Source: a virus
Taxonomy: Duplodnaviria; Heunggongvirae; Uroviricota; Caudoviricetes
Virus record (IMG/VR): IMGVR_UViG_3300007351_000001
Strand: one strand, 5' to 3'
DNA: 64,000 nt
The position numbers and the translations under genes were made by a program. The notes beneath the pieces are model-generated. The model saw only the letters and a list, made by a program, of their open reading frames with translations. It was not told the origin of the DNA and did no database searches. Positions 2,229 to 54,211 of this stretch are shown here, in pieces (position 1 is the stretch's first letter; every line of letters starts with the position of its first letter).

Positions 2229-2837
2229 GTGTGGTTGCTGGGCCTCGCGGCCTGGTTCTTCCTGTGCGAGCCGGCGTGGGCACAAGAGCCTACGCCGGCT
2301 CCAACAGGTGCCGCCGCAGAATACGACCGCAGCGCGTGGCCGCTGTGGACTGATGAAGATCGAGATCGGGAGGACGCGCGCACGGAGGTGCTGATTCGCG
2401 ACTCACTGATCCCGCCGCGCGTGTTCGTGAACAACCGCGGCAACCGATTGGTCAGCGAGGGCGTGTGGGTCTGTCCCTACACTGGACAGGTCATGACCGA
2501 CCCGCGCCAACTCGACATCGACCACATGGTACCGCTCGGCTACGCGTTCCACGCGGGCGGCAAGGACTGGACGCGTGAGCAGCGCCAGGCCTATGCGAAC
2601 TGGCTCCAAGATCCGAATCACCTGAAAGCGGTGAGCGCCTCAGCCAATCGCTCGAAGAGCGATCAAGGTCCGGCCGAGTGGAAGCCGCCGCTGAAGACGA
2701 CCTGGTGCGAGTACGCGATTGCGTTCGCGGAGGTCGCGACCACGTGGCACTTGACGTTGCCGCCGGCTGATGCGCATGCGATCGTCGAGATGATCGCGAC
2801 CTGCCCGCTCTCCAACCGGTGGGATCTCCGCGAGTAA
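2229..2837 (+). CDS. Secreted HNH-type endonuclease (DUF1524/GmrSD C-terminal-like)
   Basis: Signal peptide MWLLGLAAWFFLCEPAWA; motifs LDIDHMVPL, ANW...LKAVSASANRSKSDQGPAEWKPP...C.YA typical of DUF1524 nucleases. Confidence 0.8.
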   Translation: MWLLGLAAWFFLCEPAWAQEPTPAPTGAAAEYDRSAWPLWTDEDRDREDARTEVLIRDSLIPPRVFVNNRGNRLVSEGVWVCPYTGQVMTDPRQLDIDHMVPLGYAFHAGGKDWTREQRQAYANWLQDPNHLKAVSASANRSKSDQGPAEWKPPLKTTWCEYAIAFAEVATTWHLTLPPADAHAIVEMIATCPLSNRWDLRE

Positions 2838-3000: not shown

Positions 3001-3795
3001 CTAGGCGACGACCCGATCGACGCGCTTCACGGGCGCATCAACGGCGTAGAGCGGTGACAAGTGCCGCGGCTTCATGGTCGCGATGAAGTGCTCGCGCCAG
3101 CCGCGGGCAAACGCATCGAGATCCTCGATCGACTGCACCACGAGCTGTCCGTGCGCCGCGTGCCGGATGCTGGTGCGCACCACCTGCTGCGCCAGCTCGT
3201 GCGCTTCGCTCCAGGTCGCCGTGCGGCCGAGGTAGGTGTCGATGCGCTCCCAGAGCTGCTCGCGCTTCTCGGGGGGAATCACCCGAGCGTGTCGATCCAA
3301 GGCTGAGGCCGACCGGATGGCCTTGCCGCGGGTGCGGTCCTCCTCGGAGACGTCCTCGACCGGCGCGCCAGGCTTCGGGATGTTCAGTGCCGCGGCGATC
3401 TCACAGCGGCGCTGATGGGCGAGCTGCTCGTAGCGCTCGTGGCAGTCGACACAGAGCGCGACGACGTCGTACGAGTTTCGAGAGCCCAGGCGGTTGGGAA
3501 ACCACCGCCGGTAGCAGTACGGCACGATGTGGTGCTTGGTGAGCCGCTCAGTGACTCCACAGACGGCGCAGTGGTTCGCCCGCGGCAAGAGCATGTAGGC
3601 GTTGCCCTTGTCGCCCGGACCGTTCGGCTCGAAGGTGAGCCGGATCTGCTTGTCGCCGACGTACTCGGCGAGGTTGTTGCGCAGGTAGAAGTTCACCTTG
3701 CGCTGTGATGCTCGACACAATGGCTCCCCCTCACGGGTGAGGATCAACCAGTTGTCGAACAGGACCCCCCGCCTCGCCTTCAACCGCCACCGCAT
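3001..3795 (-). CDS. HNH-like zinc-binding nuclease resembling the C-terminal domain of eukaryotic EXD2
   Basis: LFDNW.I...EGEPLC...RK..FYL, RLTFEP.G, CAVCG...LTKHHIVPYCYRR.FP....NSYDVVALCVDCH. Confidence 0.75.
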   Translation of the reverse strand: MRWRLKARRGVLFDNWLILTREGEPLCRASQRKVNFYLRNNLAEYVGDKQIRLTFEPNGPGDKGNAYMLLPRANHCAVCGVTERLTKHHIVPYCYRRWFPNRLGSRNSYDVVALCVDCHERYEQLAHQRRCEIAAALNIPKPGAPVEDVSEEDRTRGKAIRSASALDRHARVIPPEKREQLWERIDTYLGRTATWSEAHELAQQVVRTSIRHAAHGQLVVQSIEDLDAFARGWREHFIATMKPRHLSPLYAVDAPVKRVDRVVA

Positions 3796-3815: not shown

Positions 3816-4079
3816 ATGGCCGACCGCGTCCAGGTCCAGTCAGAAACGACCACCTCCGTCGGTGTTGGGCCTGGTCTGGTGCGCCCGTTGGCGCTGCAGC
3901 ACAGCGGCCTCGCTGACGAGTTCTTCCACCGCTTCGGCCGCATGCACCCCGGCGGCATCCAACAGGCCTTCTCCGACTTTGCCCACGCGCGCGACCTCTC
4001 CAGGGACGACGCCGAACAGTTGCGCACCCGGCTGCATCAGGTGTACGGTCTCACCGGCATTGCGACGCGTGTCTGGTGA
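3816..4079 (+). CDS. Hypothetical protein, first gene of the short-ORF operon
   Basis: AGGAG SD before ATG; 87 aa. Confidence 0.65.
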   Translation: MADRVQVQSETTTSVGVGPGLVRPLALQHSGLADEFFHRFGRMHPGGIQQAFSDFAHARDLSRDDAEQLRTRLHQVYGLTGIATRVW

Positions 4080-4088
4080 GGTGAGGGC

Positions 4089-4313
4089 ATGGGTGAGGGT
4101 GGGGACTTTTCCTTTGTCGATCTAGGAGAGCAGTGCACCAGCGACCGCGCGCTGGCGATCCGGTTCCTCTGGGAGAGCATGCAGGCCGGCCTCATGCAGC
4201 TAGACGAAGTGCGCGCCGGCCTCGACCTCCCACTGATCGGGCAGCCGCCTGGCCGTGTTGGTGACTTCTCGAAGAGCGGTCCAGCGCCGCTCAGCTTGCC
4301 AGGATACTGCTGA
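4089..4313 (+). CDS. Short hypothetical protein with shared C-terminal GRVG..GPA tag (copy 1, variant)
   Basis: GAGG SD; ends GRVGDFSKSGPAPLSLPGYC*. Confidence 0.75.
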   Translation: MGEGGDFSFVDLGEQCTSDRALAIRFLWESMQAGLMQLDEVRAGLDLPLIGQPPGRVGDFSKSGPAPLSLPGYC

Positions 4314-4663
4314 TGCTCACGCGCAAGCGTCTGCTCGCCGCGGTGAAGTACCCGACCCGGTACGATGACCGCTGGCGTGAAGAGAGCTGGCCGGTCATCC
4401 GGTTCACGACCGACCAGATGTCCGAGCTGAAGCTAGGGGATCGCATCAGTGTCGACGTCGGCAAGGCGAGACAGAGCCGCATCTACGTCGTCGACTCGAT
4501 CACGCACACCCCCGAGGGCGGGACCAACATCAGTGCCCACATGCCGATTCTCGGCGACGCACCAGGTGAGAAGACCTACGACGTCTTGCTCGGGCCACCG
4601 AAAGGGCGTGTCGGGTTCTTCTCGAACGACGGCCCCGCGCCGAAGACTGCGAGCTGTCCGTGA
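4313..4663 (+). CDS. Short hypothetical protein with shared C-terminal tag (copy 2)
   Basis: TGATG overlap with upstream stop; ends GRVGFFSNDGPAPKTASCP*. Confidence 0.8.
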   Translation: MLTRKRLLAAVKYPTRYDDRWREESWPVIRFTTDQMSELKLGDRISVDVGKARQSRIYVVDSITHTPEGGTNISAHMPILGDAPGEKTYDVLLGPPKGRVGFFSNDGPAPKTASCP

Positions 4664-4897
4664 ATGGGCGATCGCCTTCCAGATTTCTTCCACAACGGCA
4701 CGTTCGACTTCGAGCCGCTGACGCGGCATCTCGACGAACTCGGTTGGCAGACCGAGGCCGCAATGCGTCAGTTCGCGCGATTGGCGGCGCTCGCTTTCCG
4801 TATTCCCGAGGAGTACCTCGTGCCGCCGATCCCGACTGGGAGAGTGGGGTCGTACTCGGAGGGTGGACCAGCGGCGCGCACAGCACTGCGGCCATGA
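4664..4897 (+). CDS. Short hypothetical protein with shared C-terminal tag (copy 3)
   Basis: ATG abuts upstream TGA; ends GRVGSYSEGGPAARTALRP*. Confidence 0.8.
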   Translation: MGDRLPDFFHNGTFDFEPLTRHLDELGWQTEAAMRQFARLAALAFRIPEEYLVPPIPTGRVGSYSEGGPAARTALRP

Positions 4898-5124
4898 TCC
4901 CGAAGGGCGAGAAGCCGTTGACGCGCAACCAGCAACGCATCGTCAACGCGCTGAAGGTCATCGGTGAGAAGGGCCTCCTCGATCATCCAGTAGAAGATTT
5001 GACCGAGAGCGAAGACGTGCGCAGAGCTGTGGCAGTGCTCAAGAAGTTCTTGGTGCCGAAGAACGGCCGCGTCGGGTACTACTCGCAGCACGGACCGGCG
5101 AAGTCGACGAGTCGCTTCCCATGA
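4894..5124 (+). CDS. Short hypothetical protein with shared C-terminal tag (copy 4)
   Basis: ATGA overlap (MIPKGEKP...); ends GRVGYYSQHGPAKSTSRFP*. Confidence 0.8.
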   Translation: MIPKGEKPLTRNQQRIVNALKVIGEKGLLDHPVEDLTESEDVRRAVAVLKKFLVPKNGRVGYYSQHGPAKSTSRFP

Positions 5125-5393
5125 GCGGCAGCGGACCGGTGATGACGTGCGTCCAGTGCGGGAAGATCGGTCTGTTCCTACGCTCGGACAACCTCTGCGA
5201 TCACTGCTGGAAGCAGCTCATGCACGCTCGTAACTACGGGATGACCGGCAGGCAGTTCCGAGACATCATCGAGGCGAGCCACATCGCGATGCCGGCGCCG
5301 ATCCCTGACTGGATCACGGTGCTATTCCCAGCGGGGCGCGTCGGCTTCTTCTCGCAGTTCGGGCCGGCGCTGCGTACCGACACGCACCCATGA
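5121..5393 (+). CDS. Short zinc-ribbon protein with shared C-terminal tag (copy 5)
   Basis: ATGA overlap; CVQC...CDHC; ends GRVGFFSQFGPALRTDTHP*. Confidence 0.8.
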   Translation: MSGSGPVMTCVQCGKIGLFLRSDNLCDHCWKQLMHARNYGMTGRQFRDIIEASHIAMPAPIPDWITVLFPAGRVGFFSQFGPALRTDTHP

Positions 5394-5662
5394 AAGACGC
5401 CCCGCCACCGAAAGGGGTCGTCTGGGTCGACCGGGAGGGCGTCCGCGTCCAGAACATCGAGGACTTCGAGTGGTACCGTGAGCACATCGAGAAGCCGCTG
5501 AAGGCTCTCATGGAACGCTCCGGCCAAGAGGTCATCCCCCTACGTGGATGGACGTTCACGCCGGACGGCAAGTGGGCGATCAGCAAGAAGCTCCCTGTGC
5601 ACGGAAGCGCCGGTTCCTATTCGATCAACGGTCCGGCAGACTCGACGAAGACATGTCCTTGA
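5390..5662 (+). CDS. Short hypothetical protein with shared C-terminal tag (copy 6)
   Basis: ATGA overlap; ends GSAGSYSINGPADSTKTCP*. Confidence 0.8.
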   Translation: MKDAPPPKGVVWVDREGVRVQNIEDFEWYREHIEKPLKALMERSGQEVIPLRGWTFTPDGKWAISKKLPVHGSAGSYSINGPADSTKTCP

Positions 5663-5952
5663 TCGACGAGTTCCCAGCCTTGCGCGGCTGGTACAAGATC
5701 ACGCCACAGGCGGTCGAGTTGCGTGGCCGGGGAATCTCGCCGCTTGCGCCGATACATGTGTGTACCGGTCCGCCGGTGATCGAGTGCCAGTTTGACGACG
5801 ATCGCTTGAAGCTCGAAGAATACCTGCGCCGGCAGATGAACGAGGAAGCCTGGCGGCTCGACATGCAGCTGCGACACTTCCGTGGGCGGCTAGGAAGCGT
5901 CGGCTCGTTTTCGCTCCAAGGACCTGCGCCGCGAACGGAGAACTACCCGTGA
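5653..5952 (+). CDS. Short hypothetical protein with shared C-terminal tag (copy 7)
   Basis: ATG 5653 overlaps the previous gene end by 10 nt (MSLIDEFP...); ends GSVGSFSLQGPAPRTENYP*. Confidence 0.75.
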   Translation: MSLIDEFPALRGWYKITPQAVELRGRGISPLAPIHVCTGPPVIECQFDDDRLKLEEYLRRQMNEEAWRLDMQLRHFRGRLGSVGSFSLQGPAPRTENYP

Positions 5953-6137
5953 TGGACTCTGGGACGACCTATAAGCGTGGCCCTGCCCGCACCGGTGGTG
6001 AACAAGACGTGATCTCGCGCCGCTGGCGCAAGATGCTCTGCTACTGCGTCCGCACGGGCGTCACGGCGAAGATCAAGCGCGGCATCCGCCGCCGCGAACG
6101 CCGCGAGGGGCGGCACGAGGCACAGAGCGAATGGTAA
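5949..6137 (+). CDS. Small Arg-rich phage protein
   Basis: GTGA overlap; GEQDVISRRWRKMLCY...IKRGIRRRERR resembles a small basic phage family. Confidence 0.65.
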   Translation: MMDSGTTYKRGPARTGGEQDVISRRWRKMLCYCVRTGVTAKIKRGIRRRERREGRHEAQSEW

Positions 6138-6724
6138 ACGAACGCTTCTTCGATCGCTCCGGGCCAGATGGGCTCGAAGGTGGGCAGGGCGGGGTCGCTG
6201 GCGGCTCTCCTAACTCCGAGTTCTCCGGTGGTGGCGCGAACAGCCAAGCCGGTCGTTGTCCGAGCTGCAACGCCAACTTCCCAGTCGACGATCCGAACCG
6301 GACGACGTTCTGCCCTGAGTGCGGGCAGCAGCGGCAGGGCGTGGTGGCGACGGCGGCAGCCCAGCAGCGCGGCGGGTGGGGCGTCTACGGCACTGGCCGG
6401 CCGGGCTATCTGCGTGTACCGGGCGGGCCGATCTCGACCAATGAAATGGCCGGCAAGCTCCGGCTCAAGTATCTCGGCGGCAATCTCTTCGAGATGGAGA
6501 TGCAGGGCGCGACGCTCGAACACGCGCTCTCATCGTCGCACTCGGTGATGTCGCATCGCCTGCGGGCTCTTGGTATGAACCAGGATCGCGTGATGCAGAC
6601 GCTGATCCACTGGCTCTTCAACGAGGCCAAGGCGGGACAGGAGTACGTGTGGGATCTCGCAGGCGGCACGCGTATGGTGGTCGACGAACGCGGTTTTCGT
6701 CGCCACGTCGAAGTTTCGGAATAA
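6131..6724 (+). CDS. Hypothetical protein with zinc ribbon
   Basis: CPSC...FCPECG; Gly-rich N-terminus; overlaps upstream stop. Confidence 0.7.
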   Translation: MVNERFFDRSGPDGLEGGQGGVAGGSPNSEFSGGGANSQAGRCPSCNANFPVDDPNRTTFCPECGQQRQGVVATAAAQQRGGWGVYGTGRPGYLRVPGGPISTNEMAGKLRLKYLGGNLFEMEMQGATLEHALSSSHSVMSHRLRALGMNQDRVMQTLIHWLFNEAKAGQEYVWDLAGGTRMVVDERGFRRHVEVSE

Positions 6725-6957
6725 CCGACGACTTCGACGACGTCCCGGAGTTGAACAGCCTCCCGAAGCTCGACATCGAGTTCGCCCCGCCGGTGAAGCG
6801 CCGCTCGCGGCGACTCGACGGCTGGACGCACCAAGACAGACCCTTGCGTGTCGAGGGCGTCGCCCCACCAGCAATCGACCGGCGCAAGCCGTTGCGCCGC
6901 GGACAAGTCGGCTACGCCTCGCGTGGCCGGCGCAAGAGGACGATCGACGATGCGTGA
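6721..6957 (+). CDS. Possible small basic protein (start codon unclear)
   Basis: Fills the gap between coupled genes (ITDDFDDVPELNSLPKLDIEF...). The only coupled start is ATA in GA-ATAA. Confidence 0.35.
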   Translation: MTDDFDDVPELNSLPKLDIEFAPPVKRRSRRLDGWTHQDRPLRVEGVAPPAIDRRKPLRRGQVGYASRGRRKRTIDDA

Positions 6958-7465
6958 TGTCTCCGCGGCGATCAGTGCGATTCTCGACGGCGCGGCCGTG
7001 CCGGTGATCGCCGAGGCGATGATGCGCATGGGCATGGGTGCCCCGCCGCCGGTCAACACCGGCGCCACCGGCGAAGCCGAGGATCGCAAGCACGCCGCGT
7101 GGATCGAGCCCAACGGCCGTACGCACGTGCTCGGCAGGGAAGAGATTCACGGCGACTGGGCCACGGCACGGCCCGAGATGTGGCCCAAGCGAGCGTACGC
7201 GGTCTACCGCGCCGCGGCCGGCCGCGGCGACGACACCTACCACGACGAATCGCGGCAAATGAGCCGCATGATGAAGGCCGGGTGGGTGCGCAAGGCTGGC
7301 GCCGCCGCGTACCACGTCCACGCCCGCGAGCAGATCCCACGGGTCCTCGCCCACGTGCGCCGCTGGCATCCAGACGTCGACGAGTTCCATGTCGACGTCG
7401 GCTCGCCGAAGATCAAGACGACGGTCACGATGAACGCGCACACCGGGTGGCCGGTGCGGAGGTAG
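6950..7465 (+). CDS. Hypothetical protein
   Basis: ATG 6950 MRDVSAAIS...; codon usage consistent with neighbours. Confidence 0.65.
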   Translation: MRDVSAAISAILDGAAVPVIAEAMMRMGMGAPPPVNTGATGEAEDRKHAAWIEPNGRTHVLGREEIHGDWATARPEMWPKRAYAVYRAAAGRGDDTYHDESRQMSRMMKAGWVRKAGAAAYHVHAREQIPRVLAHVRRWHPDVDEFHVDVGSPKIKTTVTMNAHTGWPVRR

Positions 7466-7473
7466 ACTGACTC

Positions 7474-9024
7474 ATGCCCATGGACGCTTCGCCCTACCAA
7501 GCTCAAGGACCGGGTGACCCGAGCGCAGGCGCGGGGCCTCCGGCGTCGCAGAATCCGCCGCCGCCAGGCCCACCACAGGTCCCTGGGGCGCCGGATCCGC
7601 GCATGCAGCCGTTTGGGCAGCAGGCGTCGCCCGGCAACTTCCTGCAGCAGATCCGACAGTTCTCGGCGGACTGTGCCCAGGTCGAAGAGATCGTCACCGA
7701 GCTGCAGAAGCTCCTGCTGCAGATCAAGATGTCGATGCCGCCCGATCGCGTCGAGGCCACGACCCAGGCGATGGGGCAGCTGCTCGCGGCGCAGTCTGGG
7801 CTCACCGGTGCTCGCATGGTGCTGGAGATGGCCACGATGCCGCAGCAGCAAGCCGGTGCCGGCGGTGGCGGTGTGCGAGAGGACAAGACGCCCGAGCCGA
7901 CGACGTTCACCGCGCTTGTCGAACAGGCGGGCAAAGCAAAGTTCGGCCTGCCTCATGCGCCGCGGCGCTACACCTGCCAGGACTGCGGCCAAGAGCAGAA
8001 GATCTCGACCAACCACACCGACGACGTATCGGACTACTGCCGCGGCTGTTCGTGGAAGCCGTCGTTCGGCAAGACGGGCCACAACATCCCCGCGCTCGGT
8101 GGGCATACCTACCGCCGCTTCTCCTACGTCGGTGAACTGAAGGAATCCGCCGATGACATCGAGCGCACGCTCGGGGTTGGTCGCTACGCTCGGCCGCAGA
8201 CCGCCGCTGATCGCAAGCTCATCCGCGACTTCCTGGCGCCGAACACGACGGCAACGGCAGATGCATGGGCACGCCGGCCGGCCGGTCCGGTGACCACGCA
8301 CGCCCGCTCGCCGTTCCAGCTGTCGATCCAGAAGACCGCCCTCGGGAAGAAAGGCGGCGTGCACGAAGCGCTCGCGACGACCTCGCACCACATGAGCGGG
8401 GGCGGTGGCACCGCGACGCAGACGCTCACCATCCCTGAGCGCGAGTACCAGATCCGCGAGTTCACTGACGGGCCGGTCACCCGTTACGAGCTGTCGCGCA
8501 TCGGCAATGACCTACGGGCGCAGGTGCCGATCTACGTGTTCCATGACCAGAAGACCGGCGCGTGGAAGTCGACGCTTTTCCAGGAAGACGACGGAGGCGG
8601 CGATCGCCACGCCGAGCTGGTGAAGCGCTGGCTCTTCCAGGGCCGGCCGGCACGCATCACCGACGCCATGGAACCGGTTGGCGGCTCGCCGCCAGCGTGG
8701 CCGTTCATGGACAACGACGGCTACGAGCGGCCAGGCTTCCACTCGACCCAGCGGCCGGTGGGAATCCCCGATCCAGGTCCGGGCCAGGGGCACTATGCCG
8801 AGTCGTCGTTCGGCGCGCTTGTTGACGAGACCAAGCGGTTCTCGAAGAGCGAGGTGGTGGCGTCGCTGCGCCAGCACGCACAGGACATCCGCGACGGCAA
8901 GATCAAGACGCGCTCGCCGAACGATGAGCCGCACACCATCATTGGCCCCGACGGCAAGCCGCACATCCCTCGTGGCCGTGTCGGGGCTGCCTCGCGCGTG
9001 CGCGTGAAGAAAGGCCGCGTATGA
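7474..9024 (+). CDS. Hypothetical Pro/Gln-rich protein with internal CxxC zinc ribbon
   Basis: 516 aa; P/Q-rich N-terminus; YTCQDCG...YCRGC. Confidence 0.75.
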   Translation: MPMDASPYQAQGPGDPSAGAGPPASQNPPPPGPPQVPGAPDPRMQPFGQQASPGNFLQQIRQFSADCAQVEEIVTELQKLLLQIKMSMPPDRVEATTQAMGQLLAAQSGLTGARMVLEMATMPQQQAGAGGGGVREDKTPEPTTFTALVEQAGKAKFGLPHAPRRYTCQDCGQEQKISTNHTDDVSDYCRGCSWKPSFGKTGHNIPALGGHTYRRFSYVGELKESADDIERTLGVGRYARPQTAADRKLIRDFLAPNTTATADAWARRPAGPVTTHARSPFQLSIQKTALGKKGGVHEALATTSHHMSGGGGTATQTLTIPEREYQIREFTDGPVTRYELSRIGNDLRAQVPIYVFHDQKTGAWKSTLFQEDDGGGDRHAELVKRWLFQGRPARITDAMEPVGGSPPAWPFMDNDGYERPGFHSTQRPVGIPDPGPGQGHYAESSFGALVDETKRFSKSEVVASLRQHAQDIRDGKIKTRSPNDEPHTIIGPDGKPHIPRGRVGAASRVRVKKGRV

Positions 9025-9526: not shown

Positions 9527-10420
9527 ATGGCGCTGCTGGACATCTTCCGTATCTACGATCGGCACGTGGTCGACTTCGTTCGACACACCGTGAATCCGAT
9601 CATCACGCAGTTGGACGTCGATGTCAGTGACGACGTCTCCTTCGCTTCGCCCGAGCGTCCCTACGCGGCTCGCGGCAACAATCCCCAATCTCGTGAACAA
9701 GCAGAACGCACCAAGCACGTCTCCGGCCTGATCGGAGACTTCCAATACGACGACCTGGTCGGCCAGACCGAGACGACGATCGACGAGCAGCGCGGCGTGC
9801 AGACCTTTGCCACGCCACGAGTGTCAGTCACGCGGCTCACCTGGCAGTTCTCCTCCGCACGCAACAACACCGTGCCGGTCCGCCGGCTCCGGGTGTGGGA
9901 TGCGGACGGCAAGCAGAACTTCTACCTGCAGACCGCCAAGGGCATCCGTCCGTGGGATCTGCACTACCAGCTCGACTTCCAGACGCGCTTTCGCGAGGAC
10001 ATGAACCAGCTCCTGCGCTGGTACCTGTACCACCCGGACCAGACCTACTCGATCCAGGTGGACTTCCGGTACCCGTGGGGCTTCAAGTCCATCCCGCTGC
10101 AGTTCGATCAGATCGTCGACAACTCCGACATCGAGACCGGCGAGAAGGAACGCGCGATCCGCTACACCATCCCCATGACCGTTGAGGGGTGGATGCTCGA
10201 AGCGTACGAGACCGAGCGGGACATTCCGTTCGACTCGGTCGCGCCGAACTTCTGGCTCACGCAGAAGACCCGCATCGCCAAGACGGTCTGCATTCAGCAC
10301 GCGCTGGCGTCGTTCGACGCCGCCGGCAACGTGCGCTCCTCCACCATCATCGAGCTGCCCGAGACGTGTTTCTCCGGAAGCACCATCGCGCTCCAAGGCA
10401 GTGGGAGCACGACGATCTAA
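9527..10420 (+). CDS. Tail terminator/sheath stabiliser, T4 gp15-like
   Basis: PRVSVTRL.WQF...R; PWDLHYQLDFQTRFREDMNQLL; IRYTIPMTVEGW matches the gp15 pattern (Y.L.I.TR..DD..QI.EQ; R.I.W...F.V.GW). Confidence 0.7.
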   Translation: MALLDIFRIYDRHVVDFVRHTVNPIITQLDVDVSDDVSFASPERPYAARGNNPQSREQAERTKHVSGLIGDFQYDDLVGQTETTIDEQRGVQTFATPRVSVTRLTWQFSSARNNTVPVRRLRVWDADGKQNFYLQTAKGIRPWDLHYQLDFQTRFREDMNQLLRWYLYHPDQTYSIQVDFRYPWGFKSIPLQFDQIVDNSDIETGEKERAIRYTIPMTVEGWMLEAYETERDIPFDSVAPNFWLTQKTRIAKTVCIQHALASFDAAGNVRSSTIIELPETCFSGSTIALQGSGSTTI

Positions 10421-13071: not shown

Positions 13072-14826
13072 ATGGCCACCGCATTCGTCTCTCCCGGTGT
13101 GTTTGTCCGGGAGATCGACCAATCCCTGTACGTCCGGCAGCTGTCGGATACGTCTTTGGGAGTGGTCGGTACCGCCAGCTGGGGTCCGGTCAACGAACCG
13201 CAGCTGATCACCAGTGTCAACCAGCTGCTCAACACCTTCGGTCCACCACTCGGACTCGACACGAGCAACGCCTACGGCACCGCCGTCCACCCGATGATCA
13301 ACACGGTCATGCGCTACCTGCGCAAGGGTCGTCGCGCGTGGGTCGTACGTGTCGAGGGGTCGGGCAGCAACTCGGCCGTGGAAGCCAACGTCGATCTCTA
13401 CGCGATCGCCGGATCGGGCTCGGGGCCGTCGATTGCAGTGAACGCCAAGCACGGCGGCACCTACGGCAACCAGATCCGCCTGCGGATCTCGAACGGCACG
13501 ATCACTGGCCGCAAGAAGCTGACCGTCTACCTCGGCTCGCCGAACGACGCCGCGGTCCTGCAACAGGTCGAGACGTTCGACAACCTGAAGAAGACCAACG
13601 AGGCGGCCACCGCGACGACGTCGACCGACGTCGACTCATGGCTGACCAAGATCAACGGCGTCTCGGCGTACATCGAGGTCGCGCAGGGTGGTGACATCAC
13701 CAACCAGCCCGACAACGTGAACCAGTCCGAGCCGGCGTCGGCGGGTCTCCAAGACGCGTCCGATCTCACCAACTCGGCCGATCAGCTCGACACCAACGAC
13801 ACGTTCTACAGCTTCGCGAACGGCGCCGACGGTGTGGGGCAGGTCTCGGACTCCGACTTCATCGGCACGCCGACGGGCGGGCCGAACGGGCAACCGTCTG
13901 GTCTGCACTGCTTCGACAACGCGGAAGCGTTCGTCGTCAACGTGCTGGCCGTGCCGGGCGCCCAGAAGCACTTCAACTCGACCGAGCACATCCGGCCGGG
14001 GCACACGTCGGCCATCGTCAACGCCCTCCAGTCCGTCTGCCTGATCCGGCAGGACTCGATGGCACTGGTCGACCCACCGATCGCGCTCACGCCGACGCAG
14101 GTCGCGCACTGGCACAACGGCGACTTCAACCTCGACGGCACCGACGAGTCGGCGGCGTTCAACTCGAACCTCCTGGCGCTCCACTACCCGTGGGTCCAGG
14201 TGTTCGACGAGTTCACCGGCACCAACGTCTACCTCCCGCCATCGGCGTTCGTCGCCGAGGCGATCGCCAACACGGACTTCGTCTCGGATCCGTGGTTCGC
14301 ACCGGCTGGTCTCAACCGTGCCCGGATCGAGGCGGCGATCAAGGCCGAGCGCACGCTCACCCAGGGCGAGCGCGACTTCCTCTACTCGGGCGGCAACGTC
14401 ATCAACCCGATCGCCACGTTCCAGGGCACCGGGCTGGTGATCTGGGGACAGCGCACGATGCAGCGGCAAGCCACCGCGCTCGACCGCATCAACGTGCGCC
14501 GCATGCTGCTCATCCTCCGCAAGCTGATCGCCACGGCGTGTCAGTCGCTCGTCTTCGAGCCGAACGACGCGACGCTCTGGCGGCGTTTCCGTGGCCTCGT
14601 CTCGCCGTTCTTGGAGGCGGTGCAGAACCGCCGCGGCATCACGCAGTTCCGTGTGATCTGCGACGAGACCACCAACACCCCTGACGTCATCGAGCAGAAC
14701 CAGATGATCGGGAAGATCTTCATTCAGCCGACCAAGACGGCTGAGATCCTGGTCATCGACTTCGTGCTGACGCCACAGGGGGCGCAGTTCCAAGAGATCG
14801 TCCAGTCGCTCGGCGGCTCGGTCTGA
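13072..14826 (+). CDS. Contractile tail sheath protein
   Basis: MATAFVSPGVFVREID; A..YPWV; PWFAPAGLNR; NPI..F...G..IWGQRT; LDRINVRR; FEPND..LW. Confidence 0.97.
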   Translation: MATAFVSPGVFVREIDQSLYVRQLSDTSLGVVGTASWGPVNEPQLITSVNQLLNTFGPPLGLDTSNAYGTAVHPMINTVMRYLRKGRRAWVVRVEGSGSNSAVEANVDLYAIAGSGSGPSIAVNAKHGGTYGNQIRLRISNGTITGRKKLTVYLGSPNDAAVLQQVETFDNLKKTNEAATATTSTDVDSWLTKINGVSAYIEVAQGGDITNQPDNVNQSEPASAGLQDASDLTNSADQLDTNDTFYSFANGADGVGQVSDSDFIGTPTGGPNGQPSGLHCFDNAEAFVVNVLAVPGAQKHFNSTEHIRPGHTSAIVNALQSVCLIRQDSMALVDPPIALTPTQVAHWHNGDFNLDGTDESAAFNSNLLALHYPWVQVFDEFTGTNVYLPPSAFVAEAIANTDFVSDPWFAPAGLNRARIEAAIKAERTLTQGERDFLYSGGNVINPIATFQGTGLVIWGQRTMQRQATALDRINVRRMLLILRKLIATACQSLVFEPNDATLWRRFRGLVSPFLEAVQNRRGITQFRVICDETTNTPDVIEQNQMIGKIFIQPTKTAEILVIDFVLTPQGAQFQEIVQSLGGSV

Positions 14827-15499: not shown

Positions 15500-17071
15500 T
15501 CACTCGGTCAAATACGCACGGAAGCGTATGCGATCGCCGTACACCACTTCGAGTTCGTGCCCGTCGGGCCAGCGCTCTTCTGCGCGCGGTGCCCACGGCA
15601 GATACCGACCGAGGAAGAAGAACGCCGCTGGCGGGGTGACATCGCCCCAGGCGCCATCCTCGGCCGCACGAAACTCGCGCGATCGGTCCCGTGCATCCAA
15701 ATCCCCAGCAAGGAAGCGGAGCGTCTCGTAGTGCACGCTCCAGCGGTCGGAGAAGAAGTTGACCTGCGTGCCCGCCGGCAAGGTGACCACCTGCTCGGCG
15801 AAGAGCCGCAGTTCGGGTGCAAAGACGTGCTCGGCCTCTTCGGTCTTGAGCGACGCCGGGTAACGCAAGATGTCCACCGCGGCACTGAGAGCGAGAATCG
15901 CCCCGAGCGCGGCCGTCCACTGGTAGCGCTTGGAGTGCCACAAGGCGCCGAGCGGCAGCGCCGCCAGGAACGCGATGAACGGCGCGAGCGCCAGCGTGCG
16001 TCGGAAGTCGCCGTTGCCAGTGGTCAGGATCGCTCCCCACGGGAAGATCAAGACAGCTGCGCAGCAGACGGCGCACGCCCAGTCGAACCGGCGATGCCAA
16101 GCCAGCACGAAGCCGACAGCGGCGGCGATCGAGATCAGTGGGTTGATCGGTGGGAAGCCTGGACTGGACAGGCCGTCACCGAAGTCTGGGCGCCCGCCAG
16201 CGAGAAGCCCAACAACGAACTTCCCTAGCTCGGCGATGATGAGCGCCACGCGCTCCCACCAGTGCGCCGCGGCCAGCCACTCCTCGGACGTGAAGATCAT
16301 CAGGCCGGAAGCGCGGTTGAAGTACTGCTGTGGGTTCTCGACCGCATACAAGATCATCGGCACCACCGCGGTGCTCACCGCCACCGCGAAAATGGTCGCC
16401 CGCGCCAGGTAGCGATCAGACGGCTCACGGATTTTCGCCAGCACGAACATAGCCGCGTAGAGCGCAAAGGTGAGTGGATAGGCGTTGTACGTGTAGATCC
16501 CCAAGCCTGCGAGGAACCCCGCGGCCAGGGACAGCCCTGGGTGCGCACGGGTACGCAGCGCGTAGGTGAGCACGATGCAGGTCGCCAGCATCACCAGCGG
16601 CCAACTCGCCACCATGTAGCCGGTGCGGCTCAGGTGGAAGTGCCACGGCATGCACGCCAGCAGGAAGGCGGCGATGGTCGCCTGTGGGCGTGAGAACCAG
16701 AGCAACCCGAGCACGTAGGTGAGCACCACCGTGGCGATACCGAGGACCGCGATCGCCCCACGCAGCGTCGTCATCGAGACACCGAAGACAGAGAAGACGG
16801 CGGCGACCCAGTAGAGCGGCCCGGCCGGTTGCCCCAGTCCGCTGGGGTAGACGTAGGGACCGATCCAGCCTTCGTCGAGGATGCGCTGGGCATCGAGCCC
16901 GGTGAGCGCCTCATCGCCGTGGAGACCGAACGGCACGTCGCCGATCCCCACCAAGCGGACCAGTGCGGCGAAGACCGCCACCACCAGCCCCAGGCTGATG
17001 GTCAGCGCCCGCTCCCGCGTCGCCGTCGCCACCCCTGCCTGCGCCGGGGCGGCGGCAACCCGAAACATCAT
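15500..17071 (-). CDS. GT-C fold multi-pass membrane glycosyltransferase (ArnT/PMT-like, GT39/GT83)
   Basis: FAALVRL...P.GLHGDEA (DE acceptor motif), QPAGPLY, RLAIAVLG..TV.LTY, PWHFHLSRTG; many TM segments plus a C-terminal extracytoplasmic domain. Confidence 0.85.
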   Translation of the reverse strand: MMFRVAAAPAQAGVATATRERALTISLGLVVAVFAALVRLVGIGDVPFGLHGDEALTGLDAQRILDEGWIGPYVYPSGLGQPAGPLYWVAAVFSVFGVSMTTLRGAIAVLGIATVVLTYVLGLLWFSRPQATIAAFLLACMPWHFHLSRTGYMVASWPLVMLATCIVLTYALRTRAHPGLSLAAGFLAGLGIYTYNAYPLTFALYAAMFVLAKIREPSDRYLARATIFAVAVSTAVVPMILYAVENPQQYFNRASGLMIFTSEEWLAAAHWWERVALIIAELGKFVVGLLAGGRPDFGDGLSSPGFPPINPLISIAAAVGFVLAWHRRFDWACAVCCAAVLIFPWGAILTTGNGDFRRTLALAPFIAFLAALPLGALWHSKRYQWTAALGAILALSAAVDILRYPASLKTEEAEHVFAPELRLFAEQVVTLPAGTQVNFFSDRWSVHYETLRFLAGDLDARDRSREFRAAEDGAWGDVTPPAAFFFLGRYLPWAPRAEERWPDGHELEVVYGDRIRFRAYLTE

Positions 17072-51907: not shown

Positions 51908-51970
51908 TGCTTCACCTTCCTACCGCGAGTTTGCTACGGTAGCGCGCGGTTGGTGGGGAGGTGCGGTGGG

Positions 51971-54211
51971 ATGAAGATTCTCATCTTCAGCGACTCGCCC
52001 TGGTTGCTGACAGGGCAAGCGCGAGTCGTACGCGAACTCGGACGGCGGTGGAAGGACAAAGGCCACCGGATCGTCAGCCTCGCGTGGAAAACGCGGTCTG
52101 ATGATTTCTACGATCGCGAGTGGCCGACACACGGCGTGGCTGGCTCGTACGGGATGCGCGACGACGCGACGATCGCCGACCTCGTCAGCCGCATCAAGTC
52201 CGAGAAAGCCGACGTGCTCTTCTGTGTTGGCGACATCCACCACTTCGTGCGCATGCGCGAGTTGCGGGAGCTGTGCCCGCACGTCTTGATCTACGGCTAC
52301 ATCAACGTCGATGGCACCCACATGCCGGCGAACTCGCGTGCTGTGCCGGTCGGGTTCGACCAGATCACCTGCACCTCGACCTTTGCCGCGCAGCAGCTGC
52401 AGCGGCTCGCCGGCAAGACCTACCAGGTCGTGCACCACGGCGTGGACCCCAAGGTCTTCCGGCCGCTGGATCGTTTTGTGGACGAGAATGAACCGTGTGC
52501 GCCCCAAGCGCTGTTCGATTCCCCGACCGGTGGGTGGAAGGATCACTTCTTCGCGATGTTCGTCGGCCGTAACATCGGCCGTAAGAATCTCCCCGCGCTG
52601 CTCGAAGCGTTGGCGATCGCCGTACAGGGCTGCCCCGAGATGCGGCTGATCATGCTCACCAATCCGCGGGACGGTCACGGCTTCCCGCTGGTCGACATCG
52701 CGCACCAGCTGGGAGTGCTACCGCACATCGGCTTTGTCATGAGCATGCTGACCAAGCAGAAGGCCGTGCCGTTCGTGAACGATCGCGACCTGAACGTGCT
52801 CATGAATCGCGCCACCGTGCTGGTCGAGCCGTCGTACGGCGAAGGCTTCGGCCTGCCGATCATCGAGGCCATGGCCGCAGGGTTGCCGGTATTCGCCGCC
52901 GACAACTCGGCGATGTCCGAACTGGTCCACGGCCGCGGCGTCACGATCCCGTGCAACTCAGCGATCTGGGCGACCGACAGCGGCGTGCGCCTGCAGCTGG
53001 TCGACGTGCCCCTGCTCGCGCAGGCGCTGATCGGGGCCTACCGCGATTGGGAGACCGGCGGCACCACCTTGGCCAAGTATCGCGCTGCCGGCCTCGACTT
53101 CACCAAGCGTCGCACCTGGCGCAACCAGGCCGACCAGTTGCTCACGCAGATCACGGACGCCGTGGCGAAGAAGCCGCCGCCGACGGTGCTGTCGAGCCAA
53201 GTACAGATCGACGAGACCGTACAAGCCGCGGTCTGCATGATCACCAGCCGTGCTCCGGACACGCCGACGATCTTCGTCGCCAAGTTCGGCGGGCTCGGCG
53301 ACTACGTGCAGCTGATGCCCGTGCTCGCTGGCATCCACCGCCGCCATCCGCGGCATCAAGTGTTTGCCGTCGTCGAGCAGGACTACGGCATCTTCGACAA
53401 CAGTCCCTTCGTCGACGGCACCACAGCAGTCGGCCCGCGCCCACAGTTCCGCGTCGTGCAGACAATCCGCCCCTACTGCGACATTCTCTACGACGTCCGC
53501 TACGTCTCGCGCGTCTACTCCGAGGTGGACCCGGCGGTGCAGTCGCCACCAGATGCGCCGTACGAGTGGTTCTACAATCACTGGGCGCACTCGAACGCGC
53601 GCGTGCACACCCTCGGCAAGCACGTCGTCGACCTCATGATCGAGTCGACTGGTCTCAGCGGCTACTGCTCGCGCGCCGACATGCTCATCGACCCGGTCGA
53701 GCACCCCCTGCACGCGCAGATCCCGCGCCCTTACGTCGTCGTCCACAACGCCGCTGGCAACGTCGGCCACTTGAAGACGTGGGACATGGCGTCGTTCCAG
53801 CAGGTGATCCGGTGGCTGCGGGGCCATGGCTATACCGTCGTGCAGACCGGGATCCCCTCTGAGCTGTCCCTGGGGCCAGACGTGCTCGACGTCCGCGGCA
53901 AGCTGCCGCACGTGCTGCACACCGCCGGCCTCCTAAAGGGCGCCGAGTTCTACTTCGGCGTCGAGGGCGGACTCTTCCACCTCGCCAAGGCAGTCGGCAC
54001 GCCTGGTGCGGTGCTCTTCTCAGTCACCCCACCGGTCTGCTTCGCGTACCCCGACACGGTGGTGCTCATGAACGAGCAGTGCCCGCCGTGCTGGTGGCGT
54101 CCGGGCACGTGGTCGGAGACGTGCCCGCTCAACTACCCACGCTGCGTCAACTTCCCGTCTGTTGAGCAGGTCATCACCGCGCTCAGCGCGATGACCGGAA
54201 AAGGTGCGTGA
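51971..54211 (+). CDS. Fused glycosyltransferase: N-terminal GT4 plus C-terminal GT9 (heptosyltransferase-like)
   Basis: MKILIFSD..TG.ARV; VGRN..RKN; EPSYGEGFGLPIIEAMAAGLPV (GT4). KFGGLGDYVQLMPVL; KTW; A..Y.GVEGGL.HLA.AVGTP...LF (GT9). Confidence 0.9.
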   Translation: MKILIFSDSPWLLTGQARVVRELGRRWKDKGHRIVSLAWKTRSDDFYDREWPTHGVAGSYGMRDDATIADLVSRIKSEKADVLFCVGDIHHFVRMRELRELCPHVLIYGYINVDGTHMPANSRAVPVGFDQITCTSTFAAQQLQRLAGKTYQVVHHGVDPKVFRPLDRFVDENEPCAPQALFDSPTGGWKDHFFAMFVGRNIGRKNLPALLEALAIAVQGCPEMRLIMLTNPRDGHGFPLVDIAHQLGVLPHIGFVMSMLTKQKAVPFVNDRDLNVLMNRATVLVEPSYGEGFGLPIIEAMAAGLPVFAADNSAMSELVHGRGVTIPCNSAIWATDSGVRLQLVDVPLLAQALIGAYRDWETGGTTLAKYRAAGLDFTKRRTWRNQADQLLTQITDAVAKKPPPTVLSSQVQIDETVQAAVCMITSRAPDTPTIFVAKFGGLGDYVQLMPVLAGIHRRHPRHQVFAVVEQDYGIFDNSPFVDGTTAVGPRPQFRVVQTIRPYCDILYDVRYVSRVYSEVDPAVQSPPDAPYEWFYNHWAHSNARVHTLGKHVVDLMIESTGLSGYCSRADMLIDPVEHPLHAQIPRPYVVVHNAAGNVGHLKTWDMASFQQVIRWLRGHGYTVVQTGIPSELSLGPDVLDVRGKLPHVLHTAGLLKGAEFYFGVEGGLFHLAKAVGTPGAVLFSVTPPVCFAYPDTVVLMNEQCPPCWWRPGTWSETCPLNYPRCVNFPSVEQVITALSAMTGKGA

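What the first reader, a model, noticed from the sequence alone, without database searches (positions are those of the whole stretch)
4089..5952. Array of seven unrelated mini-proteins sharing one fixed-length C-terminal peptide tag
Seen: seven consecutive coupled ORFs (74-116 aa) with no similarity in their bodies end in GRVGDFSKSGPAPLSLPGYC, GRVGFFSNDGPAPKTASCP, GRVGSYSEGGPAARTALRP, GRVGYYSQHGPAKSTSRFP, GRVGFFSQFGPALRTDTHP, GSAGSYSINGPADSTKTCP and GSVGSFSLQGPAPRTENYP. Six are exactly 19 aa ending in Pro-TGA, and six have a Pro 2-3 residues before the first Gly. Gly10, Pro11 and Thr15 use all four codons, so selection acts on the peptide rather than the DNA. Each stop overlaps or abuts the next start. 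Inference: a modular cargo-plus-tag system. The tag could be (a) a sorting/packaging or docking signal for a set of effectors, (b) a conjugation or proteolytic-release site (RiPP-like core or C-terminal ligation substrate), (c) a Gly-patterned beta/amyloid-like co-assembly motif, or (d) a nascent-chain Pro-stop element tuning termination and re-initiation (C-terminal Pro is known to slow termination; TnaC ends in Pro-UGA). I recognise no described family with this tag.
Basis: partly seen in the sequence, partly recalled or inferred. Interest (0 to 1): 0.93.

Follow-up and report, generated by a model that had tools for sequence, protein, structure and literature searches.

The report
Shared C-terminal tag on phage mini-proteins
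Seven unrelated small proteins of an uncultured 241-kb phage, made as one coupled gene string inside the virion-gene block, all end in the same 19-residue peptide; it is most likely a docking tag that hands them to one common partner, probably the assembling virus particle, but its function is untested.

Summary
Seven back-to-back genes (window 4089-5952, + strand) encode small proteins with no detectable similarity in their bodies. Each ends in G-[RS]-[VA]-G-x-[FY]-S-x-x-G-P-A-x-x-[TS]-x-x-x-P, six of them exactly 19 residues before the stop.

A close relative (Logan contig L051) keeps the same genes and tags under purifying selection: dN/dS is 0.25 for the bodies and 0.14 for the tags. Synonymous codons vary freely and no RNA structure is present, so the peptide is what is selected.

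- The tag is not confined to the array. Two more small proteins elsewhere in the genome carry it. Its core, [RK]-[VI]-G-x-x-S, also recurs in larger proteins of the head-to-tail gene block (d516 C-terminus, p420). In a more distant relative it appears as PPE-R-I-G-D-V-S-G, three times.
- The phage has a T4-type head (Gp23 capsid protein, S77 protease fused to a scaffold-like tail).

No known family, solved structure or metagenome protein outside this lineage matches the tag.

The best reading, at about 40%, is a short linear docking motif that recruits a coupled set of cargo proteins to the assembling virion. This would be a C-terminal counterpart of the T4 capsid targeting sequence or the encapsulin targeting peptide. 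The rivals are a Ser-modification sequon, a co-assembly motif, a processing site and a Pro-UGA termination element. The partner was not identified.

The parts
3816..4079 (+). up87. An 87-aa ORF that heads the co-directional gene string and has no tag. It is related to the C-terminal end of the 440-aa protein of relative L052.
   Evidence: blastp E 8e-5; good Shine-Dalgarno sequence
4089..4313 (+). T1. A 74-aa acidic protein. Its tag is at 4251-4310 and is the 20-residue variant, ending GYC. It is the only array gene with a strong ribosome-binding site.
4313..4663 (+). T2. A 116-aa basic protein with its tag at 4604-4660. The start overlaps the T1 stop (TGATG).
   Evidence: the end of the tag is conserved in L051
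4664..4897 (+). T3. A 77-aa protein with its tag at 4838-4894.
   Evidence: ortholog P0009, 78% identity
4894..5124 (+). T4. A 76-aa basic protein with its tag at 5065-5121 and an ATGA overlap with T3.
5121..5393 (+). T5. A 90-aa protein with a CxxC...CxxC zinc-ribbon-like N-terminus. Its tag is at 5334-5390.
   Evidence: (DZR_2, E 0.0014, below the Pfam cut-off)
5390..5662 (+). T6. A 90-aa protein with its tag at 5603-5659 (GSAG variant).
   Evidence: ortholog P0005
5653..5952 (+). T7. A 99-aa protein with its tag at 5893-5949 (GSVG variant).
5952..6137 (+). d62. A 61-aa very basic protein (pI 11) that is translationally coupled to T7 and has no tag.
6131..6724 (+). d197. A zinc-ribbon protein coupled to d62. 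It is the most conserved gene of the block, with 95% identity and dN 0.012 over the part held in L051. Relatives were found in L052 and in an ENA contig.
7474..9024 (+). d516. A 516-aa protein with a Pro/Gln-rich N-terminus and a zinc ribbon. Its C-terminus carries a degenerate copy of the tag core (P-R-G-R-V-G-A-A-S at 8968-8994, 16 residues before the stop). This is the positional equivalent of the C-terminal E-R-I-G-D-V-S-G of its 773-aa ortholog in L052.

Best explanation
T1 to T7 are seven real, unrelated small proteins. They appear to be translated as one coupled string from the T1 ribosome-binding site, inside the late head-to-tail gene block of a complete 241-kb T4-type jumbo myovirus.

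Their shared C-terminal peptide is a lineage-specific short linear recognition motif. Its core, [RK]-[VI]-G-x-aromatic-S preceded by a Pro-containing linker, is read by one common partner. That is why the same core also sits at the C-terminus of d516, inside p420, on two more small proteins elsewhere in the genome, and three times in two large proteins of a more distant relative.

The most likely job, and this step is inferred, is addressing. The tag would dock a fixed-ratio set of cargo proteins onto the assembling particle, either the prohead core and capsid interior or the neck. The proteins would then travel with the virion and probably enter the host with the DNA. The logic would match the N-terminal capsid targeting sequence of the T4 internal proteins and the C-terminal targeting peptides of encapsulin cargo.

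Shown: the genes, the tag, peptide-level selection, the wider motif, and the T4-type head. Inferred: binding, the identity of the partner, and packaging.
For: 1. The genes are real and the tag is under peptide-level selection. Relative L051 keeps T2(end)-T7 in synteny with the tags intact. dN/dS is 0.25 for the bodies and 0.14 for the tags, with dS about 0.6 in both. Codons are varied, and Ser even switches between TCG and AGC in L052.

2. The motif behaves like a portable recognition peptide.
- It sits on nine unrelated small proteins.
- It sits at the C-terminus of d516 and of its 773-aa ortholog in L052.
- It is internal in p420 (N-R-V-G-D-A-S-A-G-G-P-P-T).
- It is internal in the 907-aa and 773-aa proteins of L052 and L053, always flanked by Pro.
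- All the C-terminal copies lie 14-20 residues from the end.

3. The context is the virion block of a T4-type head.
- The Gp23 capsid protein and an S77 protease with a 340-residue helical tail lie about 12 kb upstream.
- A head-tail adaptor lies in between.
- A gp15-like terminator and the sheath lie 3.5-7 kb downstream, all on the same strand.

4. T2 to T7 have weak or no Shine-Dalgarno sequences and overlapping stops and starts. This points to coupled synthesis of the whole set from one ribosome-binding site.

5. Copy #8 lies beside a polyvalent-type InPase protein. Iyer et al. 2017 (PMC5512222) predict that this domain class is packaged and injected.

6. Precedents exist.
- A 10-residue T4 capsid targeting sequence loads divergent internal proteins, and foreign proteins, into the head (PMC9026906; PMC7411985).
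- Encapsulin C-terminal peptides such as P-L-T-V-G-S-L-R-R bind an HK97-fold shell through hydrophobic-Gly-hydrophobic plus a Ser hydrogen bond (PMC7925596).
- Three of the tags read R/S-V/A-G-S-Y/F-S.
Against: - No partner was identified and no virion proteomics exists for this uncultured phage.
- The T4 targeting sequence is N-terminal and is cut at L/I-x-E. Here the tag is C-terminal and no Glu precedes it.
- The capsid protein of this clade keeps an invariant L-D-E site, so the protease is probably Glu-specific and would not remove the tag at the G|R junction.
- The central domain of p420 occurs in other phages as a small protein among early-type genes, so not every motif carrier need be structural.
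- Copies #8 and #9 lie outside the structural block.
- Several copies within one protein (the L052 773-aa protein) are more than a packaging signal needs.
- The resemblance to encapsulin peptides covers only 4-5 residues and may be chance.
Confidence: 0.4

Rival explanations
1. Modification sequon. The invariant Ser, with the invariant Gly three residues before it, is the acceptor site of a phage or host transferase, for example an O-glycosyltransferase. The tag would make each carrier a substrate.
For: - Ser7 and Gly4 are the only residues invariant in every copy of the motif in both phage types.
- Several copies in one protein, sitting in Pro-rich linkers, are typical of modification sites.
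- The genome is rich in glycosyltransferases: a GT4+GT9 fusion at window 51950-54211, a GT-C candidate noted at 15500-17071, and a GT2/GT4 island (earlier notes).
Against: - No transferase lies within 5 kb of the array.
- No Hanks-type kinase is found in the genome.
- The conserved second half of the tag (G-P-A..T...P) and the fixed distance to the C-terminus are not explained by a simple sequon.
- This reading is not exclusive of docking.
Confidence: 0.18
2. Co-assembly motif. The tags bind each other, or bind the repeated small beta-barrel domains of the neighbouring 882-aa protein. The seven proteins would then form one hetero-complex or decorate one scaffold, without necessarily being packaged.
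For: - Coupled translation suggests the seven proteins are made together as one set.
- Gly or Ser falls at every third position of the motif (G1, G4, S7, G10).
- The 882-aa protein lies 2.5 kb upstream. Its sub-threshold Pfam hits include four small beta-barrel families (KOWx, NfeD, Tudor_RapA; ProQ_C and PCB_OB in its ortholog), with two unrelated families among the remaining weak hits.
- Its L052 ortholog carries the motif itself.
Against: - The Pfam hits are below their cut-offs, and the AlphaFold2 model of residues 1-300 is unreliable (pLDDT 44).
- The match between domain count and tag count is numerology.
- The motif also sits on proteins encoded far from the array.
Confidence: 0.15
3. 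Processing or ligation site. The tag is recognised by a peptidase or ligase and is removed or used for coupling. Examples would be a polyprotein-linker remnant, a RiPP-like follower peptide or a C-terminal ligation substrate.
For: - In L052 and L053 the motif separates zinc-ribbon modules of a 773-aa protein and is preceded by Glu (P-P-E, G-M-E, A-P-E). This resembles the x-x-E cleavage sites of T4-type proteases.
- An indel between L052 and L053 begins and ends at motif copies.
Against: - In this phage the residue before the motif is Gly (Lys in copy #8, Asn in p420) and never Glu. The capsid protein nevertheless keeps an L-D-E site.
- No peptidase, ATP-grasp or radical-SAM gene adjoins the array.
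- No PDZ_2 or S41 peptidase is found in the genome.
- The bodies are 55-97 residues long and under purifying selection, unlike RiPP cores.
Confidence: 0.12
4. Nascent-chain element. The peptide acts inside the ribosome tunnel, slows termination at Pro-UGA and promotes re-initiation at the overlapping start. Its purpose would be to tune coupled expression.
For: - Six of the seven tags are exactly 19 residues long and end in Pro-TGA.
- The next start overlaps or abuts each stop.
- T2 to T7 lack good Shine-Dalgarno sequences.
- C-terminal Pro is rare in this genome (7%).
Against: - The motif core also works far from any stop. It is internal in p420 and in the L052 907-aa and 773-aa proteins.
- Copy #8 has no stop after the tag.
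- Copy #9 and d516 end in Ala and Val rather than Pro.
- Coupling continues through d62 and d197 without any tag.
- The three residues next to the Pro are the least conserved in the tag.
- TGA is simply the commonest stop codon (70%).
Confidence: 0.1

Closest known systems
T4 capsid targeting sequence (CTS) of internal proteins IPI, IPII, IPIII and Alt
   Same: - A short shared terminal peptide sits on otherwise divergent small proteins of a phage with a Gp23/gp21-type head.
- The peptide is portable.
- The protein set varies between related phages (PMC9026906, PMC7411985).
   Different: - The T4 sequence is N-terminal, about 10 residues long, and is removed at L/I-x-E. Here the tag is C-terminal, 19 residues long, with no Glu at the junction.
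- There is no sequence similarity.
- Packaging is not shown here.
- Here the genes form one coupled array.
Encapsulin cargo targeting peptides (for example P-L-T-V-G-S-L-R-R-G-G and the D-G-S-L-G-I-G-S-L-K-G consensus)
   Same: - It is a C-terminal peptide after a flexible linker, placed on unrelated cargo proteins.
- It has a hydrophobic-Gly-x-hydrophobic pattern with a Ser.
- The shell partner has the HK97 fold, as phage capsid proteins do (PMC7925596).
   Different: - The host is a phage, not a bacterial compartment.
- The motif is longer and has a conserved G-P-A..T...P half.
- It lacks the terminal basic residue.
- Binding to the capsid protein is unproven.
C-terminal targeting segments of prohead proteases (HK97 gp4, from my own knowledge: Duda et al. 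2013; SPN3US gp245, PMC7411985)
   Same: A C-terminal segment directs a protein into the prohead.
   Different: Only one protein per phage carries it, it is not a family of tagged cargo, and there is no shared motif with this tag.
N-terminal packaging signals of eCIS/PVC payloads (PMC9054023, PMC11495950)
   Same: Unrelated payload proteins encoded beside a contractile-tail gene set share a terminal, disordered loading signal.
   Different: The signal is N-terminal, about 50 residues long, and is loaded into the tube lumen with an AAA ATPase. Those are not phage genes.
TnaC / SecM-type arrest peptides
   Same: A conserved peptide lies at a fixed distance from a Pro at the end of the ORF, followed by a UGA stop.
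   Different: Those are short regulatory leader ORFs. Here the peptide ends 74-116-aa proteins whose bodies are under selection, and its core also occurs internally.

Membership tests
T4-type capsid targeting sequence / internal proteins | The phage has a Gp23-type capsid protein and a gp21 (S77) prohead protease. | tested here: met
   PF07068 at E 5e-59 and PF03420 at E 9e-13; PHROGs 138 and 207.
T4-type capsid targeting sequence / internal proteins | The tag is an N-terminal propeptide of about 10-20 residues. | tested here: not met
   The tag is C-terminal in all seven proteins. The N-termini share nothing.
T4-type capsid targeting sequence / internal proteins | The tag is removed at an L/I-x-E site. 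| tested here: not met
   The residue before the motif is Gly in all seven array tags (Lys in copy #8, Asn in p420). The capsid protein keeps an invariant L-D-E.
T4-type capsid targeting sequence / internal proteins | The proteins are found inside the head. | not testable with these tools
   The phage is uncultured and no proteome is available.
Encapsulin targeting peptide | A C-terminal peptide follows a flexible linker on unrelated cargo proteins. | tested here: met
   Pro-containing linkers precede the motif.
Encapsulin targeting peptide | The peptide has the G-S-L / hydrophobic-G-hydrophobic motif with a basic anchor. | tested here: inconclusive
   V-G-S-Y/F is present in three tags and V-G-F-F or V-G-Y-Y in others. 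There is no terminal Lys or Arg.
Encapsulin targeting peptide | The peptide binds the inner face of an HK97-fold shell protein. | not testable with these tools
   This needs binding or loading experiments.
Ribosome arrest peptide (TnaC/SecM type) | It acts only as a nascent chain at a fixed distance from the stalled codon. | tested here: not met
   The core motif is internal in p420 and in the L052 proteins, and copy #8 has no stop after it.
Ribosome arrest peptide (TnaC/SecM type) | The ribosome stalls at the Pro-stop. | not testable with these tools
   This needs toeprinting or ribosome profiling.
RiPP precursor | A short precursor is encoded next to its modifying enzymes. | tested here: not met
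   No enzyme family was found in the neighbours from 3816 to 9024. The bodies are 55-97 aa long with dN/dS 0.25.
Any described protein domain or solved structure | A significant profile match exists. | tested here: not met
   Pfam and PHROGs gave none. PDB gave none at E up to 10. Among 1.84 billion representatives, only the window's own seven matched.

The most novel reading that the evidence does not exclude
A tailed phage uses a C-terminal address peptide to load a translationally coupled, freely exchangeable set of small effector proteins into its T4-type capsid. The peptide would be related in logic, and possibly in binding mode, to encapsulin targeting peptides. The same motif would recruit larger virion proteins. 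This would be a natural C-terminal capsid-loading code in phages and a functional bridge between phage capsids and encapsulins.
Probability: 0.2. Interest if true: 0.85.

Novelty: new variant of a known kind. Interest (0 to 1): 0.6.

Why it matters
If the tag is an address label, it would mark which proteins of an uncultured giant phage travel in the particle, and so point directly at candidate injected host-takeover or anti-defence proteins that have no homologs.

It would also give a portable 19-residue handle for loading foreign proteins into a T4-type capsid from the C-terminal side. And it would show that the C-terminal cargo-loading logic of encapsulins exists in their phage relatives.

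Even if the function differs, the array is a clean natural example of one short linear motif grafted onto many unrelated phage proteins. The exact residues to mutate are already visible: Gly4, Ser7, Gly10-Pro11-Ala12 and the terminal Pro.

Tried and rejected
1. Degenerate DNA pattern for the tag, scanned against three collections:
- IMG/VR viral contigs: 5 loci.
- JGI metagenome contigs: 40 loci.
- GTDB genome contigs: 43 loci.
All were single hits, mostly in short or Arg-rich frames that look non-coding. None was a tagged array. They were rejected as chance.

3. Searches for relatives of the neighbouring proteins:
- The 516-aa protein against viral contigs gave nothing.
- T2 gave only two weak, unrelated loci, L006 and L007.
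- blastn of the region and tblastn of d516 against 50,697 phage records gave no match.

4. Complex prediction of the capsid protein (69-row alignment) with the tag region (12-row alignment) returned 'no answer', score 0.00. This is not evidence either way.

5. AlphaFold2 models were too poor to use or to search with. The 882-aa protein, residues 1-300, gave pLDDT 43.7. T6 gave pLDDT 45.5.

6. ESM Atlas look-ups of p420, d516 and d197 gave no usable hit.

7. The look-up of sequencing runs listed no run and no RNA holder.

8. Walking along more distant relatives by capsid-protein homologs:
- Several long contigs could not be read because no DNA was returned.
- The ones that could be read have 52% GC (L057) and 37-38% GC (L058, L059) and lack the motif.
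- In L058 and L059, three head-region proteins (76, 82 and about 410 aa) end in K-I-G-G-L-K, K-I-G-V-F-R-G and K-V-G-R-T-R-K. This is a weak post-hoc lead only.

9. A sigma-54-like promoter search around the array found nothing above chance. The sigma-70 and terminator scan was uninformative.

10. I considered and dropped L/I-x-E sites inside the T proteins as evidence of protease processing. About one such site per protein is expected by chance.

11. I considered and dropped clamp-binding, ssrA/Clp degron, sortase, CTERM-sorting, T7SS and integrin-like RGD readings. The conserved residues do not fit the motifs I recall for these systems (my own knowledge, not tested with tools).
Full report
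**What is there**

The window lies in a complete 241,426-bp virus record with direct terminal repeats (G000:C1:46243-110242). Its GC content is about 65%. It is a jumbo myovirus with a T4-type head.
- A Gp23-family capsid protein (PF07068, E 5e-59) lies about 12 kb upstream of the finding.
- Next to it is a Peptidase_S77 (gp21-type) protease fused to a helical tail of about 340 residues.
- A head-tail adaptor follows these.
- Downstream of the finding, on the same strand, come a gp15-like tail terminator (window 9527-10420), the sheath (13072-14826), baseplate J, a spike and large fibre-like proteins.

The finding therefore sits inside the late virion gene block, between the head-completion genes and the tail genes.

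Seven consecutive + strand ORFs (T1 to T7, window 4089-5952) end in G-[RS]-[VA]-G-x-[FY]-S-x-x-G-P-A-x-x-[TS]-x-x-x-P. Six have exactly 19 residues between the first Gly and the stop.
- Two starts needed correction: T4 begins at ATG 4894 (ATGA overlap) and T7 at ATG 5653.
- Every stop overlaps or abuts the next start.
- Gly10, Pro11 and Thr15 each use all four codons.
- The bodies have no detectable similarity to each other.
- No Pfam or PHROG match reaches significance. The best is a sub-threshold zinc-ribbon hit in T5.
- A core regex finds 11 matches in the six-frame translation of the genome, against 0.47 expected from shuffles.
- All seven stops are TGA, but 70% of genes in this genome end in TGA, so that is unremarkable. 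A C-terminal Pro occurs in only 7% of genes.

**They are real genes and the peptide is what is selected**

A profile search of 5.8 billion proteins found one relative, a 1,705-bp Logan contig (L051). It carries the end of T2, then T3 to T7, then the next two genes, all in the same order.
- Orthologs are 71-84% identical.
- Across the five gene pairs, dN/dS is 0.25 for the bodies and 0.14 for the tags. dS is similar in both, 0.66 and 0.55. There is therefore no extra constraint at the nucleotide level.
- The seven tag-coding segments have no common RNA fold (-1.7 kcal/mol).
- Rfam finds nothing there.

**The tag is lineage-specific**
- An exhaustive HMM search of 1.84 billion cluster representatives returned only the window's own seven proteins at E <= 0.001.
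- The PDB has nothing at E up to 10.
- Degenerate DNA scans of IMG/VR, JGI metagenomes and GTDB genomes gave only isolated hits that look like chance.

**The tag is not confined to the array**

This is the main new fact. Within the same genome:
- A small protein at 24.4 kb carries P-K-R-V-G-D-F-S-Q-H-G-P-A. It lies beside a polyvalent-type InPase protein. Oddly, there is no stop after the tag: the frame runs 56 codons into the next gene, a DHH/DHHA1 phosphoesterase.
- A small protein at 130.4 kb on the minus strand ends in G-H-V-G-A-Y-S-Y-G-G-P-P-P-L-E-A-A. Its stop forms a GTGA overlap with a possible GTG start of the next gene, which may instead start at an ATG further downstream.
- The 516-aa protein just downstream of the array (d516) ends in P-R-G-R-V-G-A-A-S plus a basic tail.
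- The 420-aa protein in the head-completion region (p420) has an internal N-R-V-G-D-A-S-A-G-G-P-P-T.

A more distant relative was reached through the conserved zinc-ribbon protein d197. It is L052, 13.2 kb, with L053 as a variant.
- It has the same flanking genes but no T array.
- It nevertheless carries the motif as P-P-E-R-I-G-D-V-S-G-G-[KR]. One copy lies inside the 907-aa ortholog of our 882-aa protein. Another lies inside the 773-aa ortholog of d516, and a third at the C-terminus of that protein.
- L053 adds an A-P-E-K-I-G-D-V-S-G copy.
- These copies differ at synonymous sites, including TCG versus AGC for Ser. Here too the peptide is what is kept.

The invariant core across everything is [VIA]-G-x-x-S, usually with a basic residue before it. 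The C-terminal copies all lie 14-20 residues from the end.

**How the array is expressed**

T1 has a good ribosome-binding site (-7.7 kcal/mol). T2 to T7 have weak ones or none (-4.1 to +1.2), and all of them overlap or abut the preceding stop. The seven are therefore probably made by termination-reinitiation from one entry point, as a set. The coupling continues into d62 and d197, which have no tag.

**What it most likely is**

A peptide with the following properties behaves as a short linear recognition motif read by one common partner:
- it is conserved at the amino-acid level;
- it is grafted onto many unrelated proteins;
- it is preceded by Pro-containing linkers;
- it is found both at C-termini and in inter-domain linkers;
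- it changes in concert across all copies between two phage types (G-R-V-G-x-F/Y-S versus E-R-I-G-D-V-S).

I put about 75% on that general statement.

The specific job I rank first, at about 40%, is addressing to the assembling particle. The reasons are:
- The array and most of the larger carriers lie in the late head-to-tail block of a T4-type phage.
- T4 itself loads a variable set of small, mutually divergent internal proteins through a shared 10-residue capsid targeting sequence. Reviewers describe that sequence as a possible evolutionary device for incorporating various proteins into capsids (PMC9026906; PMC7411985).
- The prohead protease of SPN3US is proposed to use a C-terminal segment for entry into the prohead (PMC7411985), and from my own knowledge the HK97 protease does so too.
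- Encapsulins have HK97-fold shells and load unrelated cargo through C-terminal peptides. Binding rests on hydrophobic-Gly-hydrophobic plus a Ser hydrogen bond, as in P-L-T-V-G-S-L-R-R (PMC7925596). Three of our tags read V/A-G-S-Y/F-S.

That last resemblance is a lead, not a test.

**What speaks against it, and the rivals**

The tag is not a T4 targeting sequence by membership. It is C-terminal, and no Glu precedes it. Meanwhile the clade's capsid protein keeps an invariant L-D-E at the expected maturation site. The protease is therefore probably Glu-specific and would not cut at the G|R junction.

The central domain of p420 occurs in Cronobacter phage CR3 as a small protein among early-type genes. 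Copies #8 and #9 lie outside the structural block.

- Modification rival. Several motif copies in one protein and an invariant Ser fit a modification sequon just as well. The genome is unusually rich in glycosyltransferases (earlier notes). No Hanks kinase, PDZ_2 domain or S41 peptidase is present.
- Co-assembly rival. The 882-aa neighbour has sub-threshold hits to small beta-barrel families, but the model was too poor to judge.
- Processing rival. The Glu before the motif in L052 fits this reading. The Gly in this phage does not.
- Nascent-chain rival (Pro-UGA). The fixed length, the terminal Pro and the weak ribosome-binding sites all fit. However, the core also functions far from any stop, copy #8 has no stop, other C-terminal copies end in Ala or Val, coupling continues without tags, and the residues nearest the Pro are the least conserved.

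**Novelty and verdict**

The array is real, coding, under selection and not described anywhere I could search. The principle has clear precedents: a shared terminal peptide that marks diverse small proteins for one destination. I therefore class it as a new variant of a known kind.

The C-terminal position, the 19-residue fixed format, the coupled seven-gene array and the spread of the core motif onto large proteins are the new elements. The partner and the function remain unproven. The single complex prediction I could run gave no answer (listed under Tried and rejected).

Noticed in passing
L008 4429-4863 (genome 24428-24862, outside the window): Tag copy #8 (P-K-R-V-G-D-F-S-Q-H-G-P-A) has no stop after the tag. 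The frame runs 56 more codons, out of frame, over the start of the next gene, a DHH/DHHA1 phosphoesterase whose ATG is at L008 4694. This may be a lost stop, an assembly error or a real extension.
   Followed up: partly
L052 7822-7900 versus L053 (start of the 773-aa ortholog): Two variants of one relative differ by an indel whose ends lie at motif copies. L052 reads P-R-V-S-G-K-V-D where L053 has a longer stretch ending A-P-E-K-I-G-D-V-S-G-K-V-D. The motif-coding DNA may act as a recombination point that shuffles modules.
   Followed up: no
window 6131-6300 (d197 N-terminus): The N-terminal 56 residues of the zinc-ribbon protein after the array are 95% identical in the relative (dN 0.012), far more conserved than any T protein. 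They begin E-R-F-F-D-R-S-G-P-D-G-L-E-G-G-Q-G-G, which faintly echoes the tag (E-R-x-x-D-x-S; F-F-x-x-x-G-P).
   Followed up: partly
L056 (genome 45125-47773; window up to 1531): The 882-aa protein is built of several short strand-rich units with weak hits to KOW, Tudor and NfeD-type beta-barrels. It also has a long Asp/Glu/Lys low-complexity stretch. Its ortholog in L052 carries the motif internally, while the equivalent site here is degenerate (G-G-V-G-D-P-M-A-G).
   Followed up: partly
window 3001-3795 (-) and 2229-2837 (+): An HNH endonuclease gene on the opposite strand interrupts the late gene string just before the array. A GH-E/HNH nuclease with a hydrophobic N-terminus lies next to it. 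A TGGCAC hexamer sits 20 nt upstream of the up87 start codon.
   Followed up: no
L008 582-2342 (genome 20581-22344): A 587-aa protein carries the polyvalent-protein-type InPase domain (PF18823, E 9e-51). Iyer et al. 2017 predict that this class is packaged and injected. In L052 the neighbouring 484-aa gene sits directly before the 907-aa protein, so this block has moved between relatives.
   Followed up: partly
L059 4335-5576, 17594-17824 and 18119-18367 (37-38% GC relative, capsid protein 67% identical; also held as L058): Three proteins of the head region (76, 82 and about 410 aa) end in E-L-I-K-I-G-G-L-K, Q-K-V-G-R-T-R-K and D-T-I-K-I-G-V-F-R-G. A [KR]-[IV]-G C-terminal ending may be more widespread in this capsid lineage, but the pattern was noticed after the fact.
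   Followed up: partly
alignment A6, residues 65-67 of the capsid protein (genome 36334-37860): An invariant L-D-E lies just before the conserved I-G-D-F-Q-K-Y segment across 69 homologs. This is the likely gp21-type maturation cleavage site.
   Followed up: no
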